From the IMG/VR virus record IMGVR_UViG_2534682255_000031: DNA of 6,095 bases; one strand, given 5' to 3'. Of the stretch, positions 3,345 through 3,490 are shown one piece after another. Within the stretch, counting starts at the first letter, position 1. The number at the start of each line of letters is the position of its first letter. The notes under the pieces were generated by a model that saw only the letters and a program-made list of their open reading frames with translations, made no database searches and had not been told where the DNA came from. Position numbers and translations under genes: made by a program. The DNA comes from a virus (Duplodnaviria > Heunggongvirae > Uroviricota > Caudoviricetes).

Positions 3345-3352
3345 TTTTCATT

Positions 3353-3370
3353 ACCGCCCTTTCGGGCGGT
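3353..3370 (-). promoter_or_regulatory. GC-rich hairpin with GAAA loop on the coding strand, 8 nt upstream of the exonuclease N-terminal ORF start
   Basis: Reverse strand reads ACCGCCC-GAAA-GGGCGGT then AATGAAAAATG; no U-tract follows, so it is not a canonical terminator. It could sequester a weak ribosome-binding region. Confidence 0.3.
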
Positions 3371-3425
3371 CTCCTGATGTTCTGAGGGTGCAGGAATCCC
3401 TCCGGTTAAGGATTAAATTTTATTT

Positions 3426-3463
3426 ACAGAACTGAATTTAATTATTCAGATATACGTATCTGT
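3426..3463. promoter_or_regulatory. Cluster of nested or overlapping inverted repeats in the 146-bp AT-rich intergenic region between the methyltransferase and the exonuclease; candidate operator/promoter region
   Basis: CTGAAT (3432-3437) - TTAATT - ATTCAG (3444-3449), overlapping CAGATA (3447-3452) - TACG - TATCTG (3457-3462), flanked by ACAGA (3426-3430) / TCTGT (3459-3463). Confidence 0.3.
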
Positions 3464-3490
3464 AACCTTACGAACCTACTCACTGGATGC

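What the first reader, a model, noticed from the sequence alone, without database searches (positions are those of the whole stretch)
3345..3490. Structured AT-rich intergenic region upstream of the exonuclease and xis-like genes
The 146-bp gap between the methyltransferase stop and the exonuclease ORF holds overlapping 6-bp-arm inverted repeats (3426-3463) and a GC hairpin with a GAAA loop 8 nt before the start codon (3353-3370). This looks like a repressor-controlled internal promoter or an RNA-level control element for the exonuclease and xis-like genes, which would be notable in a remnant lacking its own immunity region.
Basis: seen in the sequence. Interest (0 to 1): 0.4.

Follow-up and report, generated by a model that had tools for sequence, protein, structure and literature searches.

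The report
Conserved prophage linker with hairpin-split ribosome site
The gap is one decayed copy of a roughly 105-base non-coding cassette that sits between genes in lambda-like prophages of about half of all E. coli genomes; its GC hairpin most likely loops out the RNA between a ribosome-binding sequence and the next start codon, and nothing in the sequence supports a repressor-controlled promoter.

Summary
The described features are real and exceed chance. These are the hairpin ACCGCCC-GAAA-GGGCGGU (3353-3370, minus-strand RNA, 8 nt before the ATG at 3344) and the overlapping AT-rich inverted repeats.

The interpretation mostly fails. No sigma-70-like promoter, intrinsic terminator or Rfam family lies in the gap.

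Window 3346-3449 is a copy of a cassette present in 2695 of 5426 complete E. coli genomes, with up to 9 copies per genome. It always reads in the sense of the flanking early genes. In my sample it joins at least 14 unrelated upstream and 19 unrelated downstream sequences.

Its anatomy is: AU-rich leader, orphan GGAGG, 22 nt, AGGAG, an 18-nt hairpin, 5-8 nt with no Shine-Dalgarno (SD) sequence, then the AUG of unrelated genes. This geometry matches the split ribosome-binding sites of T4 genes 38 and 25. Stem substitutions favour G·U wobbles on the sense strand, but formal covariation is not significant.

The "exonuclease ORF" is a chimera. A 1359-bp deletion (joint at 3191) fused 51 codons of an Ea22-like gene to a 5'-truncated exonuclease. 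This copy is therefore a relic. The finding is ordinary and of modest interest.

The parts
3353..3370 (-). GC hairpin ACCGCCC-GAAA-GGGCGGU: 7 bp with a GAAA tetraloop, -14.1 kcal/mol
   Evidence: (I7). Conserved in the cassette family: 95.9% of cells paired. One-sided changes are mostly G·U, with one G-C to A-U compensation.
3371..3376 (-). CAGGAG: a Shine-Dalgarno-like sequence directly 5' of the hairpin, 26 nt from the AUG in linear sequence and 8 nt once the hairpin is formed
   Evidence: Duplex with the 16S 3' end is -7.4 kcal/mol (-9.7 for the commoner AGGAGG). Probability unpaired is 0.85-0.96 for the GGAG bases and 0.35 for the leading A. GGAG is retained in 113 of 122 cassette copies anchored independently on the 70-aa ORF.
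3345..3352 (-). 8-nt spacer AAUGAAAA between the hairpin and the start codon; it has no SD potential
   Evidence: Duplex energy +0.4 kcal/mol. Equivalent spacers in other copies are 5-8 nt and also lack an SD.
3147..3344 (-). Chimeric 65-codon ORF. The first 51 codons are those of a 155-aa Ea22-like gene; after the deletion joint at 3191 it runs out of frame into exonuclease DNA.
   Evidence: Intact 155-aa relatives share MAELTKWLQ...KVALVSLE. blastn against mEp460_4F5: window 3191-3418 = L124 2847-3074, and window 1704-3191 = L124 1-1487, so 1359 bp are missing.
2839..3198 (-). 5'-truncated 3'-5' exonuclease (Rv2179c-like domain, profile positions 79-177 only)
   Evidence: PF16473, E = 3.4e-37, profile 79-177 of 177. 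RefSeq annotates it as 'missing N-terminus'.
3377..3398 (-). 22-nt filler GAUUCCUGCACCCUCAGAACAU. This is the 'empty' allele; other copies carry a 70-codon ORF here instead.
   Evidence: In a leader-anchored sample, the distance from leader SD to hairpin is 28 nt in 133 copies and 228-229 nt in 73 copies. Among the 13 copies the hairpin pattern missed, 9 were divergent empty copies, 2 were filled and one locus ended too soon. No third allele appeared.
3399..3403 (-). Orphan GGAGG. It is the SD of the 70-aa ORF in 'filled' copies; here no start codon follows it.
   Evidence: -10.0 kcal/mol with the anti-SD.
3404..3449 (-). AU-rich leader of the cassette (CUGAAUAAUUAAAUUCAG..UAAAUAAAAUUUAAUCCUUAACC), containing the CTGAAT/ATTCAG and ATTAAATT/AATTTAAT repeats
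   Evidence: Homology with other contexts runs from 3346 to 3449 and is aligned.
3450..3490 (-). Tail specific to the methyltransferase module. It holds the outer arm TTACAGA and the CAGATA/TATCTG repeat and is not part of the widespread cassette.
   Evidence: Shared only with copies linked to the methyltransferase or to one other upstream gene.
3491..3964 (-). SAM-dependent methyltransferase pseudogene with an in-frame TAG at 3682-3680
   Evidence: RefSeq: 'internal stop'. Pfam gave no hit on either half; the label rests on the NCBI annotation.

Best explanation
The gap is a copy of a conserved, non-coding intercistronic cassette of Escherichia lambda-like prophages. It is transcribed as part of the early operons, in the sense of the minus strand here.

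Shown:
- The cassette is widespread and always co-oriented with its neighbours.
- It ends within a few bases of a start codon.
- It joins many unrelated genes.

Inferred mechanism: its 3' part is a split translation-initiation region. An exposed AGGAG lies immediately 5' of a very stable 18-nt hairpin. The hairpin loops out the intervening RNA, so the SD-to-AUG distance drops from 23-26 nt to 5-8 nt. The ribosome can then start on a downstream gene that has no SD of its own.

The 5' part is the AU-rich leader and SD of an optional 70-codon gene, which is absent in this copy. Because the same about 105 bases flank many different genes, the cassette also serves as a stretch of homology at which gene modules can be exchanged.

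In this window the cassette is a relic. Its downstream gene was cut by a 1359-bp deletion, its upstream gene carries a stop codon, and no promoter is recognisable upstream in the remnant.
For: Distribution:
- 2695 of 5426 E. coli genomes carry it, up to 9 places per genome.
- Only Escherichia among 72,556 plasmid records.
- 21 phage records: 20 Escherichia or Stx-converting phages and one record labelled Actinobacillus.

Context:
- It lies between co-directional early genes, either after replication genes or in the ea22 region.
- 225-230 sampled copies have 14 unrelated upstream and 19 unrelated downstream flank clusters.

Geometry:
- Start codons of about ten unrelated N-termini lie 5-8 nt after the hairpin.
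- One family has its own GGAG, with the AUG at 10 nt.

Energetics:
- Post-hairpin spacers give +1.6 to -2.3 kcal/mol with the anti-SD.
- The pre-hairpin AGGAG(G) gives -7.4 to -9.7 kcal/mol. Its GGAG bases have a probability unpaired of 0.85-0.96; the leading A has 0.35.
- The 3' arm is about 100% paired.

Hairpin retention:
- 60% of 149 unique contexts carry one of the two consensus forms.
- Transitions that keep pairing only in the sense RNA number 39, against 15 that keep pairing only in the antisense (binomial P = 0.0015).
- One lineage shows a G-C to A-U double change.
- The C-to-T excess is absent outside the stem: 32 vs 13 inside, 14 vs 31 outside.

Loop identity is not essential. GGCA variants precede intact genes, which fits a structural spacer.

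Precedent: T4 gene 38 goes from 22 to 5 nt and gene 25 from 27 to 11 nt, both confirmed by mutation (PMC3014915).

Relic status.
Against: - There is no experimental evidence on translation, transcript ends or structure for any copy.
- Formal covariation does not exceed shuffles, because the copies are too alike. Retention of the hairpin could therefore partly reflect recent common descent.
- About 15% of unique contexts carry stem-breaking changes.
- The 3' arm GGGCGGU could itself pair with the anti-SD (-8.3 kcal/mol), so the hairpin might instead repress initiation.
- RNAalifold also pairs an invariant UCCU in the leader with AGGA of the SD, which would mask the SD.
- Many downstream genes share the junction by descent, so independent junction types are fewer (about 6-8) than copies.
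Confidence: 0.55

Rival explanations
1. The hairpin is an intercistronic mRNA-stability or processing element. It would act as a barrier to 3'-5' exonucleases for the upstream cistron (REP-like), or as a protective 5' structure after RNase E cleaves the AU-rich leader. It would set relative expression within the operon and would not take part in ribosome binding.
For: - A stable GC hairpin without a U tract lies between cistrons, next to a long AU-rich, probably single-stranded leader.
- In 'filled' copies it lies 7 nt after the stop of the 70-aa ORF.
- The same 18-mer serves as a terminator hairpin in unrelated phage contigs when a T run follows it.
- Sense-strand wobble bias fits any RNA-level role.
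Against: This does not explain two things: why the start codon is always 5-8 nt from the stem with no SD in between, and why an exposed AGGAG is kept directly 5' of the stem. The two roles are not mutually exclusive.
Confidence: 0.2
2. The cassette has no RNA function of its own. It would be a hitch-hiking 'boundary sequence' kept alike by frequent homologous recombination among Escherichia prophages, with the hairpin as a leftover of a former terminator.
For: - Copies are 85-100% identical while the flanks are unrelated.
- The cassette is restricted to the genus.
- Covariation is not significant.
- Short conserved boundary sequences have been proposed as recombination targets in lambdoid phages (Susskind & Botstein 1978; Clark et al. 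2001, as cited in PMC3233612).
Against: - Downstream genes without any other SD must still be translated.
- The asymmetry of stem substitutions is confined to the stem.
- Variants that lack a start codon have re-paired GGAG with CUCC, UUCC or UUUC, including a G-C to A-U switch. This implies selection on RNA pairing.
Confidence: 0.15
3. The hairpin is a translational operator or repressor. Either it locks a cryptic SD (GGCGGU in the 3' arm) away, or it binds a phage or host protein (for example an arginine-rich peptide of the kind that binds GNRA-like boxB loops) to switch the downstream accessory genes off.
For: - The 3' arm can pair with the anti-SD (-8.3 kcal/mol) at canonical spacing but is fully paired.
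- The GAAA tetraloop sits on a G-C stem.
- The position overlaps the initiation region.
Against: - The loop is replaceable (GGCA, UAAA, AAAA, GAGA variants).
- There is no boxA-like sequence at nut spacing, and the location is not promoter-proximal.
- A conserved exposed AGGAG upstream would be unnecessary.
Confidence: 0.08
4. One reading: the AT-rich palindromes are operators of a repressor-controlled internal promoter that drives the exonuclease and xis-like genes.
For: The region is AT-rich (31% GC in 3410-3490) and has more inverted repeats than chance. The remnant has no other recognisable minus-strand promoter.
Against: - There is no -35/-10 match at 8/12 or better on the gene strand.
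- The repeats are not conserved as DNA palindromes.
- The cassette sits inside operons of intact phages that have PL/PR.
- The downstream 'gene' is a deletion chimera.
Confidence: 0.04

Closest known systems
Split ('discontinuous') ribosome-binding sites of phage T4 genes 38 and 25 (Nivinskas et al. 1999; Malys & Nivinskas 2009; reviewed in PMC3014915)
   Same: The SD sequence is too far from the AUG in linear sequence (here 23-26 nt; T4 22 and 27 nt). A hairpin between them restores a working distance (here 5-8 nt; T4 5 and 11 nt). No other SD is present, and the arrangement is retained across related phages.
   Different: Here the function is untested. One and the same cassette serves many unrelated genes in temperate lambdoid prophages, whereas in T4 the arrangement belongs to one gene of a lytic phage. 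There is no sequence similarity to the T4 sites.
Conserved 'boundary' or 'linker' sequences between modules of lambdoid phages (Susskind & Botstein 1978; Clark et al. 2001, HK620; cited in PMC3233612)
   Same: A short conserved non-coding sequence at gene boundaries, flanked by unrelated modules, which could act as a target for homologous recombination.
   Different: I could not read those papers here, so I do not know whether this particular sequence is among the ones they described. This one has a defined RNA anatomy and an optional 70-codon insert.
Intrinsic terminator hairpins
   Same: The identical 18-mer ACCGCCCGAAAGGGCGGT occurs in unrelated viral contigs followed by a T run.
   Different: In the cassette no U tract follows. 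The tail is AAUGAAAAAUG, and the terminator scan does not call it. Only the start-codon-less variants extend the stem and gain a U-richer tail.
REP-type intercistronic stabiliser hairpins (from my own knowledge, e.g. malE-malF)
   Same: A repeated, stable hairpin between cistrons of an operon, present in many copies per genome.
   Different: REPs are chromosomal, are not positioned with respect to the next start codon, and are not preceded by an SD.
Lambda nut boxB (from my own knowledge)
   Same: A short G-C stem closed by a GNRA-type loop in an early phage transcript.
   Different: There is no boxA, the site is not promoter-proximal, the stem is 7 bp with a true tetraloop, and the loop sequence is not invariant.
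HnrS (EcOnc10-12), a multicopy prophage sRNA of EHEC (bioRxiv 10.1101/2025.11.27.690950)
   Same: Multicopy (up to nine) and prophage-borne in E. coli.
   Different: HnrS lies in late regions, has its own transcription start and an intrinsic terminator, and is 98% confined to EHEC/EPEC. The cassette is in early regions, lacks a terminator and is found in half of all E. coli genomes.

Membership tests
Split translation-initiation region (T4 gene 38/25 type) | SD-like sequence at a non-functional linear distance from the start codon | tested here: met
   AGGAG ends 26 nt before the AUG in the window and 23-26 nt in other copies.
Split translation-initiation region (T4 gene 38/25 type) | The intervening RNA folds into a stable structure that brings the SD to about 5-11 nt from the AUG | tested here: met
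   The 18-nt hairpin is -14.1 kcal/mol, which is above shuffles at P = 0.002. The residual spacing is 8 nt here and 5-8 nt elsewhere. This is in silico only.
Split translation-initiation region (T4 gene 38/25 type) | No alternative SD at canonical spacing | tested here: met
   Spacers give +1.6 to -2.3 kcal/mol with the anti-SD. One variant family has its own GGAG.
Split translation-initiation region (T4 gene 38/25 type) | Destabilising the structure lowers translation and restoring it rescues translation | not testable with these tools
   This needs reporter fusions or toeprinting.
Split translation-initiation region (T4 gene 38/25 type) | Phylogenetic retention of the structure | tested here: inconclusive
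   95.9% of cells are paired, there is a wobble bias of 39 vs 15 and one compensatory pair. The covariation measures do not exceed shuffles.
Sigma-70 promoter with operator palindromes | -35/-10 hexamers with 16-18 nt spacing | tested here: not met
   0 sites at 9/12 or better in 2400-4400; the single site in 4300-5700 is on the + strand. 0 sites at 8/12 or better on the gene strand of 3330-3520.
Sigma-70 promoter with operator palindromes | Dyad symmetry conserved at the DNA level | tested here: not met
   In CTGAAT/ATTCAG the third pair is G·U in 51 of 90 rows and G-C in 21. The outer arm lies outside the conserved cassette.
Sigma-70 promoter with operator palindromes | Primary transcript 5' end | not testable with these tools
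   The Sakai strain, for which dRNA-seq exists, lacks this remnant. No data were found for other copies.
Intrinsic (Rho-independent) terminator | GC-rich hairpin followed by a U tract | tested here: not met
   The hairpin is present but the tail is AAUGAAAAAUG. The scan does not call it on either strand.
Lambdoid boundary / linker sequence | Short conserved intergenic sequence flanked by unrelated modules on both sides | tested here: met
   14 upstream and 19 downstream flank clusters around a cassette of about 105 nt. Homology stops at 3346 and 3449.
Lambdoid boundary / linker sequence | Recombination actually occurs within it | tested here: inconclusive
   The window itself switches partner inside the cassette. 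It is mEp460-like up to 3418 and Qin-methyltransferase-like from 3346 to 3966. This is compatible with exchange there but does not prove it.
Known RNA family (Rfam 15) | Match to a curated covariance model | tested here: not met
   No hit overlaps 3345-3490, even at E <= 10.
N-utilisation (nut) site | boxA consensus a few nt upstream of a boxB hairpin, close to PL/PR | tested here: not met
   No CGCUCUUA-like sequence lies at nut spacing. The copies lie after replication genes or deep in the ea region. The boxA consensus is from my own knowledge.

The most novel reading that the evidence does not exclude
The cassette may be a portable 'expression socket'. It would be a shared leader plus a hairpin-split ribosome-binding site that lets Escherichia lambdoid phages plug in promoter-less, SD-less accessory genes by homologous recombination. 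Through the common hairpin it might also put them under one post-transcriptional control, by a hairpin-binding factor or by temperature- or RNase-dependent unfolding. That would be a noncoding counterpart of gene-cassette systems, operating inside phage early operons.
Probability: 0.12. Interest if true: 0.55.

Novelty: new member of a known kind. Interest (0 to 1): 0.3.

Why it matters
If the split-RBS reading holds, a single 105-nt sequence supplies translation signals to many unrelated accessory genes in the prophages of about half of all E. coli strains. It would also mark the seams at which those genes are shuffled. That would help annotation, both in choosing start codons for SD-less small genes and in recognising deletion remnants. 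It would also give a concrete, testable example of a 'boundary sequence' with a molecular function. For this particular window it matters little, because the copy is a relic between two pseudogenes.

Tried and rejected
- **Mis-specified scan.** My first degenerate pattern had one N too many. The range outside Escherichia therefore rests on the phage and plasmid BLAST searches alone.
- **Small protein.** All three sense frames are closed just upstream of AAUCC and none has an ATG, GTG or TTG. A CUG-initiated 18-codon frame shows no synonymous-site pattern. The + strand ORF 3250-3435 is not conserved, because its 5' part lies in variable genes. Rejected.
- **Antisense RNA.** Stem substitutions would break the antisense hairpin. 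Rejected.
- **Other stems.** I tested AAUCC/GGAUU, GAGGG/CCCUC, UCCUG/CAGGA and the AU hairpins. All are conserved rather than covarying, and GAGGG/CCCUC is broken in three lineages. No claim is made for them.
- **HnrS or other EcOnc sRNAs.** HnrS lies in late regions and has a terminator. EcOnc20 and EcOnc22 map elsewhere. The Sakai Sp5 and Sp15 stretches I fetched hold no cassette.
- **Experimental data for this locus.** Sakai has an intact dusA without the remnant. K-12 Qin has no copy. The other K-12 prophages were not checked.
- **Literature search for the hairpin sequence.** No paper was found.
- **Third allele between leader and hairpin.** None was found.

Full report
**Where the window comes from.** The window is 100% identical to the chromosome of E. 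coli strains such as 2017C-4109. RefSeq annotates a prophage remnant there, inserted at the 5' end of dusA. Reading leftwards on the minus strand, the genes are:
- a DUF2303 fragment;
- yfdR;
- a hypothetical gene;
- a SAM-methyltransferase pseudogene (3491-3964, internal stop);
- the gap 3345-3490;
- a 65-codon 'hypothetical protein' (3147-3344);
- a 3'-5' exonuclease 'missing N-terminus' (2839-3198);
- a PrtN-family gene (2521-2829).

Pfam confirms two labels. The exonuclease is PF16473, but only profile positions 79-177. The PrtN-family gene is PF11112.

- In sense (minus-strand) RNA the hairpin is ACCGCCC-GAAA-GGGCGGU at -14.1 kcal/mol. It ends 8 nt before the AUG.
- The best local hairpin energy is -15.2 kcal/mol, against -6.3 +/- 2.0 in shuffles (P = 0.002).
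- Six-mer inverted-repeat seeds number 9, against 0.87 expected.
- The fold of the whole gap is only marginally better than shuffles (z = -1.7).

**There is no promoter, terminator or known RNA family.**
- The consensus scan finds no promoter-like site on either strand of 2400-4400. It finds none on the minus strand of 4300-5700. It calls no terminator in the gap.
- A relaxed scan of my own finds nothing at 8/12 or better on the gene strand of 3330-3520, where shuffles give 2.3 on average.
- Rfam gives nothing in the gap, even at E <= 10.

**The gap is a copy of a widespread cassette.**
- BLAST of the 146 nt finds matches in 2695 of 5426 complete E. coli genomes, with up to 9 places per genome. 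Most matches cover window 3346-3449.
- It also matches 21 phage records.
- Among plasmids it matches Escherichia only.
- In annotated records it always lies between co-directional early genes, in the same sense as in the window. Examples are after the replication genes of Rac- and Qin-like prophages and of an O157 prophage, and in the ea22 region of ArgO145, mEp460 and other Stx-type phages.
- Among 225-230 copies collected from viral contigs, the 150 nt upstream fall into 14 unrelated clusters and the 150 nt downstream into 19.

**Anatomy in RNA sense.** The cassette reads, in order:
- an AU-rich leader, CUGAAUAAUUAAAUUCAG..UAAAUAAAAUUUAAUCCUUAACC;
- GGAGG;
- either 22 nt of filler or a 70-codon ORF;
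- CAGGAG;
- the hairpin;
- 5-8 nt;
- AUG.

The filler and the ORF are the only two alleles seen. In a sample anchored on the leader alone, the distance from GGAGG to the hairpin was 28 nt in 133 copies and 228-229 nt in 73. The first GGAGG is therefore the SD of the optional ORF, and it is orphaned in the window.

Start codons of about ten unrelated N-termini follow the hairpin at 5-8 nt. These include the DUF7167-type MRKFKIII, the MTTLFRKEYP / MVTLFRKKYP / MKHYLEKNYP group, the MAELTKW / MTELTKE Ea22-like group, MLTLKHF and MQDIKEN. One family (MGITKERLL / MEITKERLL) has its own GGAG, with the AUG at 10 nt.

**Why I favour a split ribosome-binding site.**
- The spacers after the hairpin cannot pair with the 16S 3' end (+1.6 to -2.3 kcal/mol).
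- The AGGAG(G) just before the hairpin pairs well (-7.4 to -9.7 kcal/mol). Its GGAG bases are predicted to be unpaired (0.85-0.96); the leading A is less so (0.35).
- The 3' arm, which could pair with the anti-SD (-8.3 kcal/mol), is essentially always in the stem.
- GGAG is kept in 113 of 122 cassette copies anchored independently on the 70-aa ORF.
- With the hairpin formed, the SD-to-AUG distance falls from 23-26 nt to 5-8 nt.
- This is the arrangement proven for T4 gene 38 (22 to 5 nt) and gene 25 (27 to 11 nt) (PMC3014915).
- The loop can be GGCA, UAAA, AAAA or GAGA in front of intact genes. That fits a structural spacer better than a sequence-specific protein site.

**RNA-level selection on the hairpin is suggestive, not proven.**
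- In 149 unique contexts, 60% carry one of the two consensus forms.
- Among stem transitions, 39 keep pairing only in the sense RNA (C to U opposite G). 15 keep pairing only in the antisense (binomial P = 0.0015).
- One lineage shows G-C to A-U, with both single-step intermediates present.
- The C-to-T excess is confined to the stem: 32 vs 13 inside, 14 vs 31 in the neighbouring core.
- These counts are sequences, not independent events.
- The covariation measures on a 90-sequence alignment do not exceed shuffles.
- RNAalifold assigns almost no covariation energy.
- The other candidate stems are merely conserved.

**Variants without a start codon.** Four related variants have no nearby start codon. 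In them GGAG or GGAA is paired with a downstream CUCC, UUCC or UUUC across a 2-nt bulge, including a G-C to A-U switch. A U-richer tail follows. When no gene follows, the SD is tucked into a longer, terminator-like stem. This argues that pairing in this RNA is under selection.

**The 'exonuclease ORF' is a deletion chimera.**
- Compared with phage mEp460_4F5, window 1704-3191 matches L124 1-1487 (99.9%).
- Window 3191-3418 matches L124 2847-3074 (98.7%).
- So 1359 bp are missing, with the joint at 3191.
- The lost DNA held the first 73 codons of the exonuclease, two whole genes, and all but the first 51 codons of a 155-aa Ea22-like gene.
- Intact relatives of that gene begin with the same MAELTKWLQ...KVALVSLE.
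- The cassette is therefore the native upstream region of that Ea22-like gene, not of the exonuclease or the xis-like gene.
- Upstream of 3418 the window follows a different relative, the methyltransferase module of Qin-like prophages at 89.7%. The partner switches inside the cassette.

**Rivals.** A stabiliser or processing hairpin is compatible with most of the data and may coexist with the split RBS. It does not explain the fixed 5-8 nt spacing and the conserved SD. A function-less recombination linker fits the high identity and the genus restriction. Such 'boundary sequences' are an established idea (PMC3233612). It leaves the SD-less downstream genes without a way to be translated. A repressing hairpin or a protein operator is possible but less economical. 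The promoter/operator reading has no sequence support.

**Verdict.** The features are real and the promoter interpretation is unsupported. What is there is a relic copy of a common lambdoid intergenic cassette, probably a hairpin-split ribosome-binding site that doubles as a mosaic boundary. It matches no Rfam family, and its hairpin core appears in none of the full texts searched. It belongs to known kinds of element, however, and this copy is non-functional. Interest is modest.

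Noticed in passing
window 3191 (joint); 2839-3344: A 1359-bp deletion relative to phage mEp460_4F5 fuses codon 51 of a 155-aa Ea22-like gene, out of frame, to a 5'-truncated exonuclease. The annotated 65-aa 'hypothetical protein' WP_000829415.1 is this chimera.
   Followed up: yes
L126 2534-2746; L123 4106-4318; L127 339-551: A 70-codon ORF (MLNTQKAINAEKYNEW...SYHND, no Pfam hit) is present or absent at exactly one site in the cassette, between the leader SD and the second SD. In the leader-anchored sample 73 copies were filled and 133 empty. Its function is unknown.
   Followed up: partly
window 1313-1441: The first 35 or so codons of dusA, with its upstream region, end abruptly (…APMLDRMYRF*). 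This is the left junction of a prophage integrated into the 5' end of dusA. Strain Sakai has an intact dusA and no remnant.
   Followed up: partly
window 3680-3682: An in-frame TAG splits the methyltransferase. The same N-terminal 118-aa piece is annotated as an intact 'class I SAM-dependent methyltransferase' in ATCC 8739. Neither half hits Pfam.
   Followed up: no
window 2492-2517: A strong bidirectional terminator-like hairpin (GAAAACCCGCC-TTCA-GGCGGGTTTTT) lies between the convergent 57-aa ORF and the PrtN-family gene. It accounts for all the weak Rfam hits near 2420-2525.
   Followed up: no
window ~5385-5440: Homology to mEp460_4F5 ends at 5384. A tail-fibre or tail-tip fragment on the opposite strand starts at 5439. 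This is a second deletion joint, which removed the early promoter and immunity region of the remnant.
   Followed up: no
L029 ~8290-8360; L086 ~7890-7960; L347; L234: Cassette variants without a start codon pair GGAG/GGAA with CUCC/UUCC/UUUC, extending the hairpin to about 11 bp. They are followed by a conserved sequence of about 65 nt (…TTGCTTAATTGTCTAAAATCGTGCTAAAT…) before the next ATG. This could be a terminator plus a promoter. I did not examine it.
   Followed up: no
PP818812.1 11316-11419 (H57): A phage record labelled Actinobacillus pleuropneumoniae carries the cassette at 95% identity next to an Ea22-like gene. Every other hit is Escherichia. This may be a mislabelled or contaminating E. 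coli prophage sequence.
   Followed up: no
L004, L005, L016, L027 and others: The exact 18-mer ACCGCCCGAAAGGGCGGT recurs in unrelated viral contigs as an ordinary terminator hairpin followed by a T run. The hairpin sequence alone is therefore not diagnostic of the cassette.
   Followed up: yes
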